Assembly: GCF_036507355.1 (NCBI RefSeq)
Contig: NZ_AP027877.1
DNA: 64,000 nt
Reading direction: 5' to 3' (one strand)
Source: Escherichia coli
GTDB taxonomy: Bacteria > Pseudomonadota > Gammaproteobacteria > Enterobacterales > Enterobacteriaceae
Within the stretch, counting starts at the first letter, position 1; each line of letters starts with the position of its first letter. The notes beneath the pieces are model-generated. The model had not been told where the DNA came from, searched no databases, and was given only the letters and a program-made list of their open reading frames with translations. This document shows, one piece after another, positions 11,124-20,108 of this stretch. The position numbers were made by a program, and so were the translations under genes.

Positions 11124-11873
11124 AATCATCATTCATGTATCAGGAAGAGTTAAGGGTACAAGGGGTACTCGATGGCGGTCTATATTTCATGACTAACGCC
11201 ATTTAAAGGAAGAAGTGCGGTGGGTGGTTTCGAATGAGGGCTGGTGTTTTGGTACGTGGCACGCCACTGCAATGTATTTATCCATCAGTACTCATTCAAA
11301 AGTACCTGGAAAAAATGCCCGCTATGCCAAGCGGGCAAATTGCTTACATGTGGAATTAAGTAATTAACGATAAAGCCAGAGTATTATCATTTATTATACC
11401 CATTCATTTAATCAGGTTAATTACTCAAATCACTGAACTATTCTCTGTTCGCTCACTGATGATGAGTGAGTACCACAACCAATGTATTAGAACAATGCCG
11501 TAGAGTAAGGATGAAATGTCTCTACCACACCTTAAACATCTACTACTGACTAGAACACCCGCCGCAGGTAGATGAGTTTTGTGAGCGTTACAGGAGCGTG
11601 GCTATGCTCATTAACCAACGCTATTGAGATATAAATTTCTAACACTTGAAAAACGATTTTCACTAATAAATTATAACGGGTGTTTTTTATCATACAGCGA
11701 AATAACTTTTTGTTTATTAAATTTAACATTCTTGTGCTAATTTAATTAAAAAGTCCATGCGTAGCATGTGAAGCAGTTAATGCCAGCAATTGTCTCAAAT
11801 GAGCGATTTTTTATAGTGACAAACAATAATAACATTAAAAATAGCCATGTAGACATTAACTGAGGAATAGACA

Positions 11874-13223
11874 ATGTTAATTAATAAAAGCAACGGATTT
11901 AACGCTAGCGCAGTTTTGGGTAGTGGAAATTATAATGAAAATAAATCTTCTAAACACATGGAGCTACTAGCTCATAGTATTGTAAAATTAATTTGTAAGG
12001 AAGCTGCATCAGAGACGTATCGCGGTGCTCTTGAAACTTTACAAAAAATGATGTCTGAATGTAAATATAAAGAAGGCAACGCCTTTGTCATTATGGGTGC
12101 TGGAGGGCAATTAAAACGTATTAAATATGATGTTGATGAAAATAAATTAAAAATATTCAACATATACTTTGATAATAATTACGAGGTAGTTACTGATGGT
12201 GAGCCTGACGTAGTATGTTTAAGCAAGCAGGTCTGGGAAAATCTTCTCATTAAATTAAAACCGGAGATTAAAGAAAATGTGTTTTCTGAAAATAACAAAT
12301 TATCGAGAGAAAATAATGTTGATCAGTATGTTCAATCCGCTAAAAGAAATGAACAGGCCCTTTTCGATAATATAATAAAAAGTGATTTTCATGTTGCTTC
12401 ACTTCAGCCAGGTAGAACACGTAGTGTTATTTCAGAAACGCCGCCAAATGACTGTATGGAATCACGTAATTCATATGAAAACCAAATAGATGAGATTTCA
12501 TCTTTGTCAGAGTCAAAGGAACACCCTATAGATATTCAAGAAAAAACAGATGCGTTTGTGAATGAGTTCAAGGGGATATTATTTGATCAAAATGGAAGGT
12601 CTTCAGAGTTTCTACTTAATTTTTATGAATGTTGCTATGTGTTTTTACCAAGAGCGCAGCCTCAGGATAAAATCGAAAGCTATAATTCAGCACTGCAAGC
12701 TTTTTCCATCTTTTGTTCATCTACGTTGACACATAATAATATAGGCTTTGATTTCAAATTATTTCCAGAAGTCAAGCTGTCTGGAGAACATCTTGAAACG
12801 GTATTCAAATACAAAAATGGCGATGATGTCCGGGAGATAGCCAAAATTAACATTTCTCTCCAAAAAGAAGAGGGTGGTTTATATAATTTACGTGGATTGG
12901 ATTTTAAGGGATGCTTCTTTTCTGGACAGAACTTCAGTAACTATGATATTCAATACGTGAACTGGGGAACGTCATTGTTTGATGTTGATACTCCGTGTAT
13001 TTTTAATACGCCTGCTAACAATGAGAGTTATGAAAAATCATTAAAACCTGTAAGCGAAAACGGTTTAAATGGAGTCTTATCTGATCGTATTAAAAAAATA
13101 AAAATGATCACGGGTGTGGCACCATTCGATGATATTTTATTTATGGATGATGACTTTGATGATAACTCCCCTGAGGATGGTCCCGTTGAGAATATTCCTG
13201 TTATGAATAGTCCTCTTGTATAA
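11874..13223 (+). CDS. Hypothetical protein, 449 aa, AT-rich orphan (ypjB/ypjC-like by position)
   Basis: Intact ORF with GAGGAA RBS 6 nt upstream of ATG; Ser/Asn-rich N-terminus without signal peptide; pentapeptide-repeat-like stretch NLRGLDFKGCFFSGQNFSNYDIQYVNWGTSLFDV; acidic C-terminus. Confidence 0.65.
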   Translation: MLINKSNGFNASAVLGSGNYNENKSSKHMELLAHSIVKLICKEAASETYRGALETLQKMMSECKYKEGNAFVIMGAGGQLKRIKYDVDENKLKIFNIYFDNNYEVVTDGEPDVVCLSKQVWENLLIKLKPEIKENVFSENNKLSRENNVDQYVQSAKRNEQALFDNIIKSDFHVASLQPGRTRSVISETPPNDCMESRNSYENQIDEISSLSESKEHPIDIQEKTDAFVNEFKGILFDQNGRSSEFLLNFYECCYVFLPRAQPQDKIESYNSALQAFSIFCSSTLTHNNIGFDFKLFPEVKLSGEHLETVFKYKNGDDVREIAKINISLQKEEGGLYNLRGLDFKGCFFSGQNFSNYDIQYVNWGTSLFDVDTPCIFNTPANNESYEKSLKPVSENGLNGVLSDRIKKIKMITGVAPFDDILFMDDDFDDNSPEDGPVENIPVMNSPLV

Positions 13224-13580
13224 AGTTCTAAAAGCAGTTTTCAATGATAAATAAATGGCTATTTTTACGAAGAGATAATAACGTAGATTGAAACAATATG
13301 TATTATTGATTGAGTAAATGGGATTATTCTTCACACTACATCCATTTTAGTGTCACTACCAAAGAAAAAGGGGCTACGTTTTCATGTAACCCCTTGATTT
13401 ATTTGGTGGGCTGGCAGTGACTGAATTGGTGCTGTAATTGGTTGAAATATTTCATCTAATGTCTGGTTCAACTTTCCTTAGCTGCCTGAAAGTTTTTTGA
13501 TCTCACCCAGTAATAACAGCGTTACGGTGCACCACGCCTGACTGAAGAACTGCGTGCTCAGGGTTACCACTTCAACGTAA

Positions 13581-13820
13581 AACCGTGGCAGGAGGTCCGG
13601 ACTGAAAAAACTGCTCAGGACATCATCGGCAGGGAACGCACTGCTAGTCTGTAAACTGAACCGACTGGGGCGCAGTATGTGGCATCTTGTCGTGCTGTTG
13701 GAGGAGCTGTGCGAACGTGGTATTAACTTTCGTGCTCTGGCCCAATCTATATTTGCCCAACAATGGGGGGACGAATGCTGTAAAAGTAAAACAATCTGCG
13801 ATCTCAAAGTTATTGTGTGA
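13581..13820 (+). pseudogene. Internal fragment of a resolvase/invertase-type serine recombinase (pinH-like remnant)
   Basis: Open frame ...[36 protein letters not shown]... matches the conserved serine-recombinase catalytic-domain core; N-terminal Ser region and C-terminal HTH absent. Confidence 0.5.
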
Positions 13821-14158
13821 TTTTTATGTGAGCAGAAGATATTCATCAGAAACGATTATGTAAATCATTTTATTTTGCCAACGGCCTCATTGTCGAAAGA
13901 AAAGAATACGCCCGTGTTTCCTGAATAGATTGACTTTTTTATCTAACCACACTTCAGCGCACTGCGTTTAAAAAATGCCTCATTCTTATGCGGAATATCA
14001 TCATTTCATCATGATGTCTTTGATGAGCGGTGAACACAATACACTTGCGCTGTCTCTTCAGGATGAATCCCCTGGTCTGGTGCCTGTGGGCTGATGTTGC
14101 AGCAAAGCTAAGGTCGCTTAAACGCTACTCAGTATTCACTTTTCAGAGGATGAAATTT

Positions 14159-15653
14159 ATGAACAGGACCAGTCCCTATTATTTTCGCCGCTCAGTACTT
14201 TCCTTATTGATATCTACCTTAATATATGCCCAGCCCGGGATGGCGGCCTTCACTACTAATGTTATTGGTGTGGTAAACGATGAGACTGTAGATGGCAACC
14301 AACGAGTAGATGAACGAGGTACAACAAATAACACTCATATTATCAACCATGGCCGGCAGGAGGTCTATGGTGGGATATCTAATAGTAGTATTATTGAAAC
14401 TGGTGGCGAGCAACTAGTATCAATCCATGCCGATATTAACGGGCAAGCTAATAATACAACCATTAATGGAGGCAGACAGTCAATTGAGTACGGAGGAATT
14501 TCTACTAGCACGATAATCGAAAGTGGCAATCAATATGTTCATAAAGGTGGTACCAGCAATGACACGACAATTAAGGGCGGTACTTCACGCATAGAGGGGG
14601 GGACTGCAAATGGAACAATCATTGATGGTGGTAGCCAACAAGTAACAACTCAGGGGCATGTTGACGGTACAACGATAAATAAGTCTGGCTCTCAGGACGT
14701 AGTACAAGGAAGTCTGGCAACGAACACAACCATAAATGGTGGTCGACAGTATGTTGAACAGAGCACAGTAGAAACAACAACCATTAAAAATGGCGGTGAG
14801 CAAAGAGTATATGAGAGCCGTGCGCTGGACACGACGATTGAAGGCGGAACTCAGTCTCTGAATAGTAAGTCAACGGCAAAAAATACACAGATCTATTCTG
14901 GTGGCACGCAAATTGTTGATAACACCAGCTCCTCGGATGTTATTGAAGTTTATTCCGGTGGCGTGCTTGATGTTAGTGGTGGTACGGCAACAAATGTTAC
15001 CCAGCACGATGGTGCAATTTTAAAAACTAACACTAACGGTACGACGGTGAGCGGTACGAATAGTGAAGGTGCATTCTCCATCCACAATCACGTGGCAGAC
15101 AATGTGTTGCTGGAAAACGGTGGTCATTTAGACATAAACGCATATGGTTCGGCAAACAAGACGATTATTAAAGATAAAGGAACAATGTCAGTTTTAACCA
15201 ATGCTAAAGCTGATGCGACCCGAATAGATAATGGCGGGGTTATGGATGTTGCAGGAAACGCGACAAATACCATAATTAATGGTGGCACACAGAATATTAA
15301 TAATTATGGCATAGCCACAGGCACCAATATCAACAGCGGAACGCAAAATATCAAAAGCGGCGGGAAAGCTGACACAACAATTATATCCTCCGGGAGCCGG
15401 CAGGTTGTTGAGAAAGATGGTACGGCAATTGGCAGCAATATTAGCGCCGGAGGCTCGCTGATTGTCTATACCGGCGGTATTGCACATGGGGTTAACCAGG
15501 AGACGGGCAGTGCTTTAGTTGCCAACACGGGTGCAGGGACTGATATCGAAGGATACAACAAGCTCTCTCACTTCACTATTACCGGAGGGGAGGCTAATTA
15601 TGTTGTGCTGGAAAACGCTGGCTCATTAACAGTCGTCACTGGTTCCCGGGCAG
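14159..15653 (+). pseudogene. 5' portion of an AIDA-I/Ag43-type autotransporter adhesin (ypjA-like); signal peptide plus repetitive passenger, truncated by IS1
   Basis: GAGGA RBS, start MNRTSPYYFRRSVLSLLISTLIYAQPGMA (signal peptide); ~19-aa repeats of the type NGGxQxVxxGGxAxxTTI; frame runs into IS1 at 15654 with no beta-barrel domain. Confidence 0.75.
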
Positions 15654-15708
15654 GGTGATGCTGCCAACTTACTGATTTAGTGTATGATGGTGTTTTTGAG
15701 GTGCTCCA

Positions 15709-15984
15709 GTGGCTTCTGTTTCTATCAGCTGTCCCTCCTGTTCAGCTACTGACGGGGTGGTGCGTAACGGCAAAAGCACCGCCGGACATCAGCGCTATCT
15801 CTGCTCTCACTGCCGTAAAACATGGCAACTGCAGTTCACTTACACCGCTTCTCAACCCGGTACGCACCAGAAAATCATTGATATGGCCATGAATGGCGTT
15901 GGATGCCGGGCAACAGCCCGCATTATGGGCGTTGGCCTCAACACGATTTTACGTCACTTAAAAAACTCAGGCCGCAGTCGGTAA
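15709..15984 (+). CDS. insA: IS1 InsA
   Basis: Protein identical to the InsA at 8363-8638. Confidence 0.95.
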
Positions 15985-16406
15985 CCTCGCGCATACAGCC
16001 GGGCAGTGACGTCATCGTCTGCGCGGAAATGGACGAACAGTGGGGCTATGTCGGGGCTAAATCGCGCCAGCGCTGGCTGTTTTACGCGTATGACAGGCTC
16101 CGGAAGACGGTTGTTGCGCACGTATTCGGTGAACGCACGATGGCGACGCTGGGGCGTCTTATGAGCCTGCTGTCACCCTTTGACGTGGTGATATGGATGA
16201 CGGATGGCTGGCCGCTGTATGAATCCCGCCTGAAGGGAAAGCTGCACGTAATCAGCAAGCGATATACGCAGCGAATTGAGCGGCATAACCTGAATCTGAG
16301 GCAGCACCTGGCACGGCTGGGACGGAAGTCGCTGTCGTTCTCAAAATCGGTGGAGCTGCATGACAAAGTCATCGGGCATTATCTGAACATAAAACACTAT
16401 CAATAA
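15903..16406 (+). CDS. insB: IS1 InsB reading frame
   Basis: Protein identical to the InsB at 8557-9060. Confidence 0.93.
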
Positions 16407-16421
16407 GTTGGAGTCATTACC

Positions 16422-17239
16422 GAGGTTTTGTTATATATGTTGTTTCCAATATATTTTTCATTTGTCAAAATTTGATGTATTTTTGCACGAGTCCATAATG
16501 TTCCATTTTCTGCAGGTATGTTCTGTTCATTTAATCTCTCAGCAATAATGAATTCTGGGACGTTATTATCTATAAAGAGATCATATATTCTATTTACAAT
16601 TTTTATTTCATTTTTTGGTCCCGGAATTAATATTACCCTATCTGTTTGAATACTCTTTCTTTTGCGGAAACTCAATATTTCTTTAGCTATGCCATTTTCG
16701 TCTACTAAAAGACGTCTCAGCCCATAACCAGCCATACCGCCTTGATGATAACCAAGCTTTATTAAATTTACTTGCCCTATAAATACCTTTTCAGATAGAT
16801 TCCTGCTGTGATATGCAGCACTAGATCTTTTTATATTCAGTATAACAGAGGACTCTAAAGGGAAATCTTTAGTGGGTATAGGTTCGGAACAATATATAAG
16901 ATCTACACCATTTCTCTCAAATAGAAAGGAATAATATGCCGCTTCATCACTATTTTGAAAACGACCAAAACGGCTCACATCATAAAATAATACAGCCTGT
17001 ATATCTATTTTCTTTTGTTCTACATCGCTAAGTAACTGCTGCAAAGAATGCCTGCCTACGATACTGACTCCGCTCTTACCTGCATCATCGTAGGTATAAG
17101 CGATTTCCATATTGTTCTTTTCAGCATAATCTTTGATATATTCGGACTGATTATGTAAAGAATATTGCTGATGGTCGGTAGACATCCTCAAGTACTGCGC
17201 GACCCTAACTCTATGATTTTTTTCATTTTCGCTAGCCAT
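16422..17239 (-). pseudogene. Large serine recombinase, N-terminal ~270 aa; 3' end removed at the IS1 junction
   Basis: MASENEKNHRVRVAQYLRMSTDHQQYSLHNQSEYIKDYAEKNNMEIAYTYDDAGKSG... (catalytic Ser motif), ...LWTRAKIHQILTNEKYIGNNIYNK recombinase domain; ORF continues a few codons into IS1; AT-rich. Confidence 0.7.
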
Positions 17240-17521
17240 GCACGAAACCTCATGGATGATTCAATACAATGTAGTGGATAAAATTGATCAAATTTTAACC
17301 GAATTCAACTGTTTTATCATTGATTAGAGCGAATTTGGTAGATCTTCGAGGTGTATGATAATCGAGAAGAGATGTGAATTATTTAGCTGATATGACCGAC
17401 AGCTTTCGTTATGTGGACTCAATGTCCCCATTTGTAAATGGCTATGCTTAGTCCACATAGGTTAATGGTGTGATTATTAATTCTTTAACTAAATCAAGAT
17501 AGTTAATCCATCATGGGAGAG

Positions 17522-18751
17522 TTATGCGGCAATAACTTTGCATTTTTGAGACGAAACATAGTCACTCCACCATTGCATGAGAACCACCCGTTCAGTGAGA
17601 TACTCTGCACGATTGTAGGCTGCAATTATTTCATCTTTCTTCGAGTGGGCAAGGGCGGCTTCTAAGACATCAGTCCTAAACTTGCCAGACTCCTCAGCAG
17701 CCGTTCTAGCAATGGATCGCATACCGTGAGCTACAAGCTCACCTCCGAAACCCATACGGATTATGGCCGCATTAGCTGTTTGTTCATGCATGTGATTGAG
17801 TGGAGCTTTGATACTGGGGAACACCCACTCTCTATGCCCGCTGATGACTTTCATTAAATCCAAAACTCGCAAAGCTTCTTTGCTCAGTGGAACTTTGTGA
17901 GGCTTCTTCATTTTCATAAACTCCGCCGGGATGTTCCACATGCCAGTTTCAATATCAATATCTGACCATCTTGTGCGAACAGCTTCACCTGGGCGAACCC
18001 ATGTGAGAAGTTGCCACTCAATCAGTAGCCTTGTTTCCAAACGGATAGAAGCATTGTTTAGAGCAACCAAGAAGCGAGGGAGTTCGGAAGGGGGTAATGC
18101 TGGCATATTCTGTTTTTTTGGCTTGCTGAACCGTTGCCCCAGGTTGTCTGCCGGGTTGAATTCTATGAGTTCTTCTGTTGCTGCATAGCGGAAAATTTCA
18201 TTCAGGCGGGATATGATGCGGCGAAGTGTTTCAAGGACACCTCGTTTTTCTATGGGTTCTAAATGCTGTTTAAGCATTTTAGGGCGAATCTCCTTAATTG
18301 GGGTATCACCCAATGTGGAAAAGATATTTCTCTCTAGGCTTCGCCAGATGTCGTTAGCATGATCTTGGGAGATGCCTGACGTTTTGACTTTCTCATCAAG
18401 CCACTTCTTGGCTACTGCTTGAAATGTATGTTCCGTGGCATCTTTCAGTGCATTGGCTTTTTGGTTGTTATGAACTTGGGGGTCTATACCATTTGTAAGC
18501 AACGACAAGTATTCATCACGTAAAGCTCGTGCCTTCGCAAGTGTAAGGTGAGGATAGGTTCCTAAGCTCACCTTAGTTCGCTTTTTGGTCACAGGCACTG
18601 CATATCTGAAATACCAATTTTTCTTCCCTCCCTTCGCCAGGGGAGCGATTCGCAACAGCAAACCATCGCCGTCAAAAAGGTTAACCTCTTTTTCGGCAGG
18701 TTTGGTGCTTTTGATTTCAGTGTCAGTGAGCTTCTTAGCGATTTTGGCCAT
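17522..18751 (-). CDS. P4-type tyrosine integrase (phage/island integrase), ~409 aa
   Basis: ORF 17522-18832; start placed at ATG 18749-18751 (MAKIAKKLTDTEIKSTKP...) with GAGGG RBS; N-terminal arm-binding-like region and C-terminal catalytic region (...HGMRSIARTAAEESG...); adjacent to ssrA 3' end. Confidence 0.85.
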   Translation of the reverse strand: MAKIAKKLTDTEIKSTKPAEKEVNLFDGDGLLLRIAPLAKGGKKNWYFRYAVPVTKKRTKVSLGTYPHLTLAKARALRDEYLSLLTNGIDPQVHNNQKANALKDATEHTFQAVAKKWLDEKVKTSGISQDHANDIWRSLERNIFSTLGDTPIKEIRPKMLKQHLEPIEKRGVLETLRRIISRLNEIFRYAATEELIEFNPADNLGQRFSKPKKQNMPALPPSELPRFLVALNNASIRLETRLLIEWQLLTWVRPGEAVRTRWSDIDIETGMWNIPAEFMKMKKPHKVPLSKEALRVLDLMKVISGHREWVFPSIKAPLNHMHEQTANAAIIRMGFGGELVAHGMRSIARTAAEESGKFRTDVLEAALAHSKKDEIIAAYNRAEYLTERVVLMQWWSDYVSSQKCKVIAA

Positions 18752-18850
18752 GTTTGGGACCCTCGATTTTAGGACCCATCTTCGTGGGTCCCATTCAGGG
18801 TGCCATAACTCGTAGTTCTCAGCAATTCTCACTAGACTACAATAGACGTA

Positions 18851-18882
18851 AAAAAGCCCGCAGAGCTTGTGCTGTGCGGGCT
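18851..18882 (-). terminator. Rho-independent terminator downstream of ssrA
   Basis: Minus strand reads gcccgcacagc-loop-gctctgcgggc followed by TTTTT. Confidence 0.7.
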
Positions 18883-18917
18883 TAGTAGACTTTACTGAAC
18901 TTCAGTACATCAATATT

Positions 18918-19280
18918 TGGTGGAGCTGGCGGGAGTTGAACCCGCGTCCGAAATTCCTACATCCTCGGTACTACATGCTTAGTCAGTCTTTACATTCGCT
19001 TGCCAGCTGCGGACGGACACGCCACTAACAAACTAGCCTGATTAAGTTTTAACGCTTCAACCCCAGGCAGGGCTTCCACGCGATCTCTTTTGGGTTTGAC
19101 CTCTCTTGATCCCCGTCCTAAGAGCGGAGGCTAGGGAGAGAGGGCTCTAAGCAGGTTATTAAGCTGCTAAAGCGTAGTTTTCGTCGTTTGCGACTATTTT
19201 TTGCGGCTTTTTACGAGGCCAACCGCCCCTCGGCATGCACCTTGGGTTTCGCAAATCCCGTCGAATCCAGAATCAGCCCC
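18918..19280 (-). ncRNA. ssrA: tmRNA (SsrA), 363 nt
   Basis: Reverse complement begins GGGGCTGATTCTGGATTCGACGGGATTTGCG and ends ...GTTCAACTCCCGCCAGCTCCACCA; tag-peptide reading frame region present. Confidence 0.97.
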
Positions 19281-19494
19281 AATGTGTAAAGGTAAGTATA
19301 CCAGATTTATGAGCGCCATGACCAGCCTCAATGGCGTTATCGTTAAAGATTTAGCACCCATGTAGCCTGATTTTTATTCGATTAAGCAATGGAATGGCAA
19401 CATTTGTGTCGGATGTGATAACCAATAAGATGTTCATTCGCGCCGCCGGAGAGGGAGGCGCGGTGAGGAACTGGTCAATAATTGGAGTGCAGGT

Positions 19495-19977
19495 TTAACG
19501 GTGGGCGTTTTTCATGATACGCGCTTTATCCACCTGCCATTCGCGCTCTTTGATATCTGAACGTTTATCGTGCTGTTTCTTACCTTTGGCGACGCCGATT
19601 TTCACTTTGCACCAGGCATTTTTCCAGTACAGGGAGAGCGCCACTACGGTATAGCCTTCTCGATTGACGCGACCGTACAATGAGTCCAGTTCGCGCTGGT
19701 TGAGAAGTAACTTGCGGGTACGGGTAGGATCGCACACCACATGCGTGGAGGCCACGGCCATTGGCGTGATGTTAGCGCCAAACAGAAATGCCTCTCCGTC
19801 ACGCAGAAGGACGTAGCTGTCGCTGATATTGGCTTTTCCTGCGCGCAGGGATTTAACTTCCCAGCCTTGCAGGGCAAGTCCCGCTTCGAACTCTTCTTCG
19901 ATAAAGTATTCGTGACGGGCGCGCTTGTTAAGCGCGATGGTCGCTGAACCAGGTTTATGTGCTTTTTTCTTCGTCAT
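19495..19977 (-). CDS. smpB: SsrA-binding protein SmpB, 160 aa
   Basis: [48 protein letters not shown]... Confidence 0.95.
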
Positions 19978-20108
19978 AAGCGTCGTGAATCATCGGTAAT
20001 CTGAAATCGAAAACACCCCATATCAATCCTGCGGGGGACAAGGCTCTATCTTAGCATGAACCCGATGTTACCCAGCGCCGGGATAGCGTTTTTTTTACAG
20101 CAGGATAA

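What the first reader, a model, noticed from the sequence alone, without database searches (positions are those of the whole stretch)
16422..18917. Decayed tmRNA-associated island: intact P4-type integrase plus truncated large serine recombinase
A full-length tyrosine integrase with a good RBS sits directly downstream of the ssrA 3' end and terminator, the classic integration site for P4-like elements. The next gene is an AT-rich large serine recombinase cut by IS1. No cargo genes and no second attachment site remain in the window, so the integrase is probably stranded. The equivalent K-12 position holds the much larger CP4-57 element, so this strain carries a different or heavily reduced island. 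A tyrosine integrase next to a large serine recombinase is an uncommon pairing worth comparing with intact relatives.
Basis: partly seen in the sequence, partly recalled or inferred. Interest (0 to 1): 0.45.

Follow-up and report, generated by a model that had tools for sequence, protein, structure and literature searches.

The report
IS1-truncated mobilizable island at ssrA
This is the dead stump of a common enterobacterial mobile island inserted at the tmRNA gene: its integrase gene is intact, but an IS1-linked deletion removed the rest, so it is an ordinary case of island decay.

Summary
Directly 3' of ssrA (18918-19280, minus strand) lie an island-borne terminator and an intact 409-aa P4-type tyrosine integrase. 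Next comes the first 273 codons of a 518-aa large serine recombinase (LSR), fused to an IS1 (15654-16421).

The other IS1 flank is the chromosomal autotransporter gene ypjA, also truncated, and the IS1 has no target-site duplication. A deletion therefore removed the distal island, its attR and about 3 kb of ypjA.

Relatives show the parent. It is a roughly 28-kb integrative mobilizable element with a conserved int-LSR-ParB-ParB core, variable restriction or defence cargo, a MobA/VirD2 relaxase and AlpA. Its attR is TTTGGTGGGCTGGCG.

The int+LSR pair occurs in 590 of 5426 complete E. coli genomes, including E. coli B derivatives. It also occurs at 96% identity or more in five other enterobacterial genera, so the pairing is not rare. 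Independent IS-mediated truncations of the same island are frequent.

The integrase is almost certainly stranded. The only unexplored aspect is the LSR plus two-ParB trio. It is conserved on plasmids, a Tn7-like transposon and islands across Proteobacteria, and its function is unknown. The window keeps only a dead fragment of it.

The parts
18918..19280 (-). ssrA (tmRNA) gene, the integration target. Its last ~14 nt (18918-31; the shared block TTTGGTGGAGCTGGCG spans 18916-18931 on the + strand) form the attL core.
   Evidence: ARAGORN and Rfam RF00023 at 295.8 bits. Homology to the empty-site strain GYB01 ends exactly at the ssrA 3' end (alignment A1).
18854..18883 (-). Island-borne rho-independent terminator that now terminates ssrA.
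   Evidence: Inverted repeat I6 with 13-nt arms followed by a T-run. The sequence is absent from the empty site and conserved in the Salmonella and E. coli copies of the island.
17522..18751 (-). Intact P4-type tyrosine integrase, 409 aa.
   Evidence: Pfam Arm-DNA-bind_3, Phage_int_M and Phage_integrase. NCBIfam PRK09692 at 444.6 bits against a cut-off of 434, scored on the identical protein. 100% identical to WP_001062342.1. RPGE, HGMR and AAY motifs are visible in the sequence.
17240..17521 (.). int-LSR intergenic region with an imperfect 24-nt inverted repeat at 17410-17459. Role unknown.
   Evidence: the repeat finder I1. The region is part of the block that is over 98% conserved between genera.
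16422..17239 (-). 5' 273 codons of a 518-aa large serine recombinase, now a pseudogene. The ORF runs on to 16400 through 6 IS1-encoded codons.
   Evidence: Pfam Resolvase 14-152 plus Recombinase 210-273, covering 64 of 102 profile positions. Identical to WP_025297248.1 up to residue 273.
15654..16421 (+). IS1 (768 bp; insA 15709-15984, insB' 15903-16406) forming the deletion junction. It has no target-site duplication.
   Evidence: 100% identical to the second copy at 8308-9075. Flanks are CCCGGGCAG and GAGGTTTTG. The other copy has an 8-bp duplication, ATATTTTG.
14159..15653 (+). 5' 498 codons of the chromosomal autotransporter adhesin gene ypjA/ehaD, cut by the same IS1. It is not part of the island.
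   Evidence: Pfam AIDA, 9.7e-61. 90.8% identical to K-12 YpjA residues 1-498. In the empty-site strain GYB01 ypjA abuts ssrA. The breakpoint corresponds to K-12 locus L037 position 26448.
13402..13416 (-). Relic att-like fragment (TTTGGTGGGCTGGCA on the + strand) with an adjacent terminator-like hairpin at 13370-13393. It is probably the outer end of an older ssrA island (ypjA-pinH'), not of this element.
   Evidence: It contains the same 12-mer as the attR of relatives and K-12 psaA. It occurs once in the window and at the orthologous place in GYB01, AH21 and K-12.

Best explanation
The region is the integrase-proximal stump of an integrative mobilizable element (IME).

The element once integrated by tyrosine-integrase recombination into the 3' end of ssrA. 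In doing so it supplied a new ssrA 3' flank and terminator.

The intact element has four parts:
- a conserved int-LSR-ParB-ParB core;
- a variable restriction or defence cargo;
- a mobilization block with a MobA/VirD2 relaxase, a NikA-like protein and AlpA;
- a distal attR carrying a displaced ssrA-like 14-mer.

In this strain an IS1 sits at a deletion junction. The deletion arose either by intramolecular IS1 transposition (adjacent deletion) or by recombination between two direct IS1 copies. It removed everything from LSR codon 274 to roughly codon 593 (K-12 numbering) of the neighbouring chromosomal gene ypjA. Against a ZYB62-like ancestor that is about 26 kb of island, the attR, and about 3 kb of chromosome.

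What remains is an intact and possibly expressed integrase with an attL but no partner site, plus a dead LSR fragment lacking its DNA-binding C-terminal half. The stump can no longer excise or transfer.

Shown here: the anatomy, the identities, the empty site, the relatives and the missing duplication. Inferred: the order and mechanism of the IS1 events, and the loss of mobility.
For: Anatomy and domains are established. Int is 100% identical and LSR residues 1-273 are 100% identical to full-length RefSeq proteins.

IS1 has no target duplication, while the second IS1 does.

The empty-site strain GYB01 has ssrA directly abutting the ypjA 3' end. Homology with the window breaks at the ssrA 3' end. 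Because the ypjA 3' part is missing from the window, attR must be missing too.

Relatives define the parent:
- ZYB62 has a 28.2-kb element with type I RM, a relaxase (PF03432, 1.6e-22), AlpA, SIR2 and an attR TTTGGTGGGCTGGCG at L036 15211-15224.
- The same attR is found in Salmonella next to fljA.
- K-12 psaA has the same core variant.
- Cargo varies beyond a shared breakpoint.

Independent IS truncations of the same island occur in ST540, CFSAN061772, TB06052, strain 20-16, an E. coli B derivative and AH21. A simple IS1 insertion in the LSR gene occurs in GENOMIC22-004.
Against: Neither IS1 junction occurs in any of 5426 RefSeq complete E. coli genomes. There is therefore no independent assembly confirming the join.

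The cargo of this strain's own ancestor is unknown. The deletion size is extrapolated from ZYB62.

The att-like relic at 13402-13416 has the same core as functional attR sites, so residual recombination cannot be formally excluded.

Expression and activity of the integrase were not tested.
Confidence: 0.9

Rival explanations
1. Assembly artefact. The genome really has two IS1 copies, one in ypjA and one in the LSR gene, flanking an intact segment of island cargo, attR and ypjA 3' end. A short-read assembler collapsed them into one.
For: The window holds two 100% identical IS1 copies. The junctions are unique among 5426 complete genomes. A relative with the same LhgO allele has a contig that ends inside ypjA.
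Against: The two flanks are collinear neighbours in the right orientation for a simple deletion. Equivalent deletions are present in finished genomes such as AH21, T7Express and ST540. The window is a 64-kb contiguous sequence that reads through a second IS1 and a complete rRNA operon, which suggests a finished assembly.
Confidence: 0.05
2. The stump is still mobile. Int recombines attL at ssrA with the att-like relic at 13402-13416 and excises a roughly 5.5-kb circle containing int, LSR', IS1, ypjA' and pinH'.
For: The relic shares the exact core GCCAGCCCACCAA with the attR of ZYB62 and Salmonella and with K-12 psaA. Int is intact.
Against: The relic is present in strains that lack this island altogether, such as GYB01 and K-12. 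Its island-side flank shows no similarity to the IME's distal arm (alignment A2), which is where arm-type sites for an integrase with an arm-binding domain would be expected. The AlpA excision factor is deleted.
Confidence: 0.03
3. The IS1 is a simple insertion into the LSR gene and the island never carried more than int and LSR.
For: Simple IS1 insertions in this gene do occur, as in GENOMIC22-004.
Against: There is no target-site duplication. The other flank is ypjA, not the LSR 3' half. All relatives continue with ParB-ParB and cargo.
Confidence: 0.01

Closest known systems
CP4-57 cryptic prophage of E. coli K-12 (IntA, AlpA, attR = psaA)
   Same: Same integration site at the 3' end of ssrA. 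Same integrase architecture (P4 type, NCBIfam PRK09692). An AlpA regulator is present in intact relatives. The attR core variant GCCAGCCCACCA is the same.
   Different: Int is only 48% identical to IntA. The gene content is unrelated: LSR-ParB-ParB, relaxase and RM instead of CP4-57 genes. The window copy lacks attR, AlpA and all cargo.
Integrative mobilizable elements (IMEs) as reviewed in PMC5704250. From memory, SGI1 and GIsul2 also combine a tyrosine integrase with a resolvase gene, resG.
   Same: Intact relatives have a tyrosine integrase, an AlpA-type RDF or regulator, a MobA/VirD2 relaxase with a NikA-like accessory protein, no mating-pore genes, and ParB-type proteins. The review lists ParB-type proteins as a possible maintenance function.
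   Different: I found no published name for this ssrA family. Transfer has not been demonstrated. The window copy has lost every mobilization gene.
Large serine integrases and transposases: TP901-1 Int, SPbeta SprA/YokA, TnpX, Ccr of SCCmec
   Same: N-terminal resolvase catalytic domain plus a recombinase domain. These are the best PDB and NCBIfam matches.
   Different: The matches are weak: CcrB scores 63 bits against a cut-off of 900. Here the LSR is not the element's integrase, because a tyrosine integrase sits at the att site. It is always followed by two ParB/RepB paralogues. The window copy is truncated at residue 273.
IS1-mediated adjacent deletions (classical IS1 behaviour, from established knowledge)
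   Same: A single IS1 at a junction between two formerly separated sequences, with no target duplication and an AT-rich target.
   Different: Nothing unusual. Only the particular end points are new.

Membership tests
P4-type tyrosine-integrase island in a tRNA/tmRNA gene | Tyrosine recombinase with an arm-binding N-domain, a central domain and a catalytic domain with the R..HxxR..Y residues. | tested here: met
   Pfam hits to all three domains. PRK09692 scores above its cut-off. RPGE, HGMR and AAY are present in the sequence.
P4-type tyrosine-integrase island in a tRNA/tmRNA gene | Integrase gene adjacent to the target gene, whose 3' end and downstream flank are supplied by the island. | tested here: met
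   Homology to the empty site stops at the ssrA 3' end. The terminator at 18854-18883 is island sequence.
P4-type tyrosine-integrase island in a tRNA/tmRNA gene | A displaced target-gene fragment (attR) at the far end. | tested here: not met
   The window has no attR for this element. The region that would hold it is deleted. The feature is met in relatives ZYB62 and Salmonella.
P4-type tyrosine-integrase island in a tRNA/tmRNA gene | Excision and integration activity. | not testable with these tools
   Needs PCR for attP and attB or a genetic assay.
Integrative mobilizable element (IME) | Own relaxase and oriT without a conjugative pore. | tested here: not met
   No relaxase is present in the window. 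In relatives PF03432 scores 1.6e-22 and a weak NikA-like hit is found. oriT was not identified.
Large serine recombinase | Resolvase catalytic domain with a serine nucleophile (YxRxSxxxQ). | tested here: met
   PF00239 at 2.5e-22. YLRMSTDHQ is present at residues 16-24.
Large serine recombinase | Complete recombinase domain plus a C-terminal DNA-binding, zinc-ribbon or coiled-coil region. | tested here: not met
   The window copy stops at residue 273 of 518. In full-length relatives only the Recombinase domain is detected by Pfam, with no Zn_ribbon_recom hit.
IS1 | 768-bp element with terminal inverted repeats and insA/insB' ORFs. | tested here: met
   99-100% identical to annotated IS1A copies.
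IS1 | Target-site duplication of 8-9 bp, as expected for a simple insertion. | tested here: not met
   The flanks differ, which is the signature of a deletion or recombination junction.
Known anti-phage defence systems (PADLOC) | An HMM match of the LSR or ParB proteins to a catalogued system. | tested here: not met
   No hits apart from a ParB_N-driven match to an MTase model.

The most novel reading that the evidence does not exclude
The truncated recombinase is a fragment of an uncharacterised three-gene module: a large serine recombinase followed by two distinct ParB/RepB-like paralogues, with overlapping genes.

The module travels as a unit across Proteobacteria:
- the ssrA IME of six enterobacterial genera;
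- Xenorhabdus;
- Agrobacterium pAtC58;
- a Piscinibacter plasmid, where it follows Tn7-like tnsA, tnsB, tniB and tniQ;
- a faecal contig;
- one record in which the two ParB paralogues are fused.

It often sits next to AbiE or other defence genes, and it lies just before the point where island cargo begins to vary. It could be a new maintenance, cargo-exchange or anti-MGE system rather than a routine resolvase-plus-partition pair.
Probability: 0.3. Interest if true: 0.55.

Novelty: new member of a known kind. Interest (0 to 1): 0.2.

Why it matters
For this window it matters little. It is one more example of how IS1 erodes islands at the tmRNA hotspot, leaving an orphan integrase and also inactivating the neighbouring adhesin gene ypjA.

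The comparison does give three useful by-products.
1. It delimits a widespread, apparently unnamed ssrA IME family that carries interchangeable restriction and defence cargo. The family is present in about 11% of complete E. coli genomes and in common laboratory B strains.
2. It shows that the attR signature GCCAGCCCACCA recurs at CP4-57, at this IME and at an older relic. The 'empty' E. coli site therefore looks like a fossil tandem array.
3. It flags the conserved LSR-ParB-ParB trio as an unstudied module. BL21-type strains carry int-LSR-ParB-ParB intact, so it could be tested easily there.

Tried and rejected
- Searching the window for the ssrA 3' 24-mer at up to 3 mismatches found only ssrA itself. 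A looser 14-mer search with indels found only the old relic at 13402-13416.
- Exact-sequence look-ups of the chimeric LSR' ORF and of the 449-aa YpjCB found nothing. The source genome was not identified. The closest alleles are GenBank BED21279/BED21280 and GCA_905398585.1.
- No RefSeq complete E. coli shares either junction.
- The single genome-contig scan with one protein returned only two close relatives.
- PADLOC gave no hit for LSR, ParB1 or Int, and only a ParB_N-driven hit to a type II methyltransferase model for ParB2.
- Four literature searches found no description of this island or of the trio. Williams 2003, 'Traffic at the tmRNA gene', is not held in the library.
- I looked for cassette-type repeats at both ends of the variable cargo as evidence of LSR-mediated exchange. 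Only one inverted-repeat cluster was found, at the core-proximal boundary, and there was no partner. The cassette idea therefore remains unsupported.
- I first took the Klebsiella L034 island to end at GH43/MFS genes, but found no attR there, so I did not use it to define the element.
Full report
**1. What is in the window**

The window runs in the reverse of K-12 orientation. smpB (19495-19977) and the tmRNA gene ssrA (18918-19280) are on the minus strand.

Immediately 3' of ssrA is a strong hairpin with a T-run at 18854-18883. Next is a 409-aa ORF at 17522-18751 (minus strand). It has Arm-DNA-bind_3, Phage_int_M and Phage_integrase domains. It is 100% identical to RefSeq WP_001062342.1. That same protein scores above the NCBIfam cut-off for the P4/CP4-57-type integrase model PRK09692. 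A GAGG lies 8 nt upstream of the ATG.

After a 282-bp spacer comes an AT-rich ORF at 16400-17239 (minus strand; 34-36% GC). It has a Resolvase domain and the first 64 positions of the Recombinase domain. Its residues 1-273 are identical to a 518-aa 'recombinase family protein'. The last six residues and the stop come from IS1.

IS1 occupies exactly 15654-16421 (768 bp). It is 100% identical to a second copy at 8308-9075.

**2.

The other flank of this IS1 is not island DNA. It is the first 498 codons of the chromosomal autotransporter gene ypjA/ehaD at 14159-15653 (Pfam AIDA 9.7e-61; 90.8% identical to K-12 YpjA).

The IS1 has no target-site duplication: the flanks are CCCGGGCAG and GAGGTTTTG. 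The copy in ygaQ has an 8-bp duplication, ATATTTTG.

In strain GYB01 the ssrA site is empty and ssrA directly abuts the 3' end of ypjA. Alignment of the window with that empty site loses homology exactly at the ssrA 3' end. It follows that the terminator downstream of ssrA is island-borne. It also follows that the attR of any island at this site must lie between the island cargo and the ypjA 3' end. That whole interval is absent from the window. The deletion therefore runs from LSR codon 274 to about codon 593 of ypjA in K-12 numbering. The window's ypjA allele also has a 285-bp repeat contraction.

The low-GC DNA from 7230 to 15653 is not island cargo. It is the ordinary E. coli backbone: ygaQ, ileY (which ARAGORN calls tRNA-Met CAT), ypjCB, the pinH remnant and ypjA. 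The same genes are seen in K-12.

**3. The parent element**

Of 5426 complete RefSeq E. coli genomes, 590 carry at least 80% of the int+LSR' segment, mostly at 99% identity or more.

In all relatives examined the LSR is followed by two overlapping ParB/RepB-like genes of 298 aa each. The most complete E. coli copy I found is in strain ZYB62. Its gene order is:
- ssrA, int, LSR, ParB, ParB
- type I RM (hsdMSR) and an IS1
- ankyrin-repeat proteins
- a NikA-like protein and a MobA/VirD2 relaxase (PF03432, 1.6e-22)
- small ORFs, AlpA (2.3e-20), DUF6387, an ankyrin protein and SIR2
- the sequence TTTGGTGGGCTGGCG (L036 15211-15224), followed by a second P4-type integrase that belongs to a second island

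That 14-15-mer is the ssrA 3' end with one base missing. It is identical to the attR of the same element in Salmonella, where the island lies between ssrA and fljA. It also has the same core as K-12's annotated psaA, the attR of CP4-57.

The element is thus a roughly 28-kb integrative mobilizable element. Beyond a shared breakpoint about 0.8 kb past the second ParB gene, the cargo differs:
- type I RM in E. coli
- a UvrA-like ATPase with two ThiF proteins in Enterobacter and Klebsiella
- Mrr plus ScoMcrA-like HNH proteins in another Klebsiella
- no inserted restriction or defence genes in Salmonella, where the ankyrin and mobilization block follows directly

The LSR is at least 96% identical across E. 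coli, Salmonella, Klebsiella, Enterobacter, Citrobacter and Cronobacter. The int-to-ParB core is 98-99% identical in nucleotide sequence between E. coli, Salmonella and the other fetched copies. This implies recent intergeneric transfer.

The tmRNA locus is a recognised hotspot for diverse mobile elements and defence cargo in E. coli (hotspot #9 in PMC10121019).

**4. Decay is recurrent**

Most E. coli copies I opened are cut at the distal side by an IS:
- ST540: IS1, then ileY
- CFSAN061772: IS1, then a ypjC fragment
- TB06052: IS3, then ileY
- strain 20-16: IS2/IS3, then ygaQ
- an E. coli B derivative, T7Express: IS1, then glaH
- AH21: IS1B joining ypjA codon 414 to LSR codon 31, a close analogue of the window

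GENOMIC22-004 has a simple IS1 insertion at about codon 148 of the LSR gene. The window's two junctions are not found contiguously in any of these genomes. It is therefore an independent event of a common kind.

**5. Mechanism**

I commit to the following sequence.
1. The IME integrated at ssrA by Int-mediated recombination. This is shown by the attL structure and by relatives.
2. IS1 inserted in the AT-rich LSR gene or in ypjA. This is inferred; IS1 hits this gene repeatedly.
3. Either intramolecular IS1 transposition or recombination between two direct IS1 copies deleted the interval. This is inferred from the single IS1 without a duplication and from the collinear flanks.
4. The stump is immobile because attR, AlpA, the relaxase and the distal arm are gone. 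This is inferred.

Against a ZYB62-like ancestor the loss is about 25.7 kb of island, the attR and about 3.0 kb of ypjA.

The integrase is intact. It could still act in trans on related incoming elements, and tandem arrays at this site are common. That possibility is untested.

**6. Rival explanations**

An IS1-collapse misassembly cannot be excluded from sequence alone. It is unlikely, given the collinear flanks and the equivalent finished-genome cases.

Residual excision through the att-like relic at 13402-13416 is conceivable, because the core is identical. However, the relic is present in strains without this island, its flank does not resemble the IME distal arm, and AlpA is missing.

**7. 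Comparison with known systems and novelty**

The closest named element is CP4-57. It has the same site, the same integrase type and the same attR core, but only 48% Int identity and unrelated cargo.

By class the parent is an IME (PMC5704250). The LSR resembles large serine integrases such as TP901-1, SprA and TnpX, and Ccr only weakly.

The 'uncommon pairing' remark is not borne out, because the pair is fixed in a very common island. I found no paper that names this island. I therefore file the window feature as a new, decayed member of a known kind.

**8. The one open thread**

The LSR is always part of a trio with two distinct ParB/RepB paralogues. ParB1 has CGQGRxEA in place of ParB's GERRxRA. 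ParB2 has DGHxRxEA.

The trio recurs at 42-58% identity in the following places:
- Xenorhabdus, next to AbiEi/AbiEii
- Agrobacterium pAtC58, next to DUF6088/AbiEii and Fic
- a Piscinibacter plasmid, directly after Tn7-like tnsA, tnsB, tniB and tniQ
- a faecal 'phage' contig
- a plasmid record where the two ParB paralogues are fused into one 594-aa protein

It has no PADLOC match.

The simplest reading is a multimer-resolution plus partition or maintenance module for the excised element. A more novel role, such as cargo exchange or anti-MGE defence, is not excluded. The window retains only a dead N-terminal fragment of it, so this does not raise the score of the finding itself.

Noticed in passing
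window 13402-13416 (hairpin at 13370-13393); also L002 18405, L003 10405 and K-12 L037 28971: An att-like relic, TTTGGTGGGCTGGCA, lies between ypjCB and the pinH remnant. It is the ssrA 3' end with one base missing, followed in ssrA sense by a terminator-like hairpin. It carries the same 12-mer as K-12 psaA and the IME attR. This suggests that the 'backbone' ypjA-pinH' segment is itself a fossil ssrA island.
   Followed up: partly
window 8308-9075: A second, 100% identical IS1 in the same orientation is inserted in the ygaQ alpha-amylase pseudogene, with an 8-bp target duplication ATATTTTG. It is a simple insertion. A relative with the same LhgO allele (L038) has ygaQ uninterrupted.
   Followed up: yes
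window 6000-15615 versus 18917-20000: The glaH-ypjA side is only 95.7-98.1% identical to any RefSeq complete E. coli. The ssrA-smpB side is 99.3-99.8% identical. The two flanks of the hotspot therefore have different histories. The source genome was not identified; the exact GlaH and LhgO alleles occur in GenBank BED21280/BED21279 and in a Shigella boydii UniRef entry.
   Followed up: partly
window 11874-13223: ypjC and ypjB form one intact 449-aa ORF (DUF5507+DUF5508, 'YpjCB'). K-12 has two split genes, and several of the other E. coli records opened annotate an internal stop.
   Followed up: no
window 15590-15653 versus K-12 L037 26448-26511: The last roughly 40-64 nt of the truncated ypjA match 285 bp further along the K-12 and GYB01 gene than the preceding sequence does. 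This indicates an in-frame 95-codon contraction of the AIDA repeats in this allele.
   Followed up: partly
L008 12499-12565 (same cluster in L001 16709-16771, L036 37664-37726, L030 14047-14109): A cluster of three copies of GAGAAGCAAGGGC (one forward, two inverted) lies in the 0.8-kb non-coding stretch after the second ParB gene. It sits about 20 bp before the point where cargo begins to differ between genera. It is a candidate ParB or LSR binding site.
   Followed up: partly
L043 (pAtC58), L044 (Piscinibacter plasmid), L025 (Xenorhabdus), L045, L046: The LSR-ParB-ParB trio is conserved outside the ssrA island. It is found next to AbiE toxin-antitoxin genes, as apparent cargo of a Tn7-like transposon, and once with the two ParB paralogues fused into a 594-aa protein.
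   Followed up: partly
L036 1-15006 (ZYB62) and L020 2274-3515: A second island with its own 413-aa P4-type integrase lies in tandem beyond the IME attR. That integrase is 48.6% identical to the window Int. In Salmonella L022 only about 120 bp of such a second element survives next to fljA.
   Followed up: no
window 11048-11123: ARAGORN calls this gene tRNA-Met(CAT). The orthologous gene is annotated ileY, tRNA-Ile(CAU), in K-12 and other RefSeq genomes.
   Followed up: yes
window 1780-2037: Three tandem naRNA4 (CssrE, REP-type) elements lie in the gabP-gabT intergenic region (Rfam, 66-77 bits).
   Followed up: no
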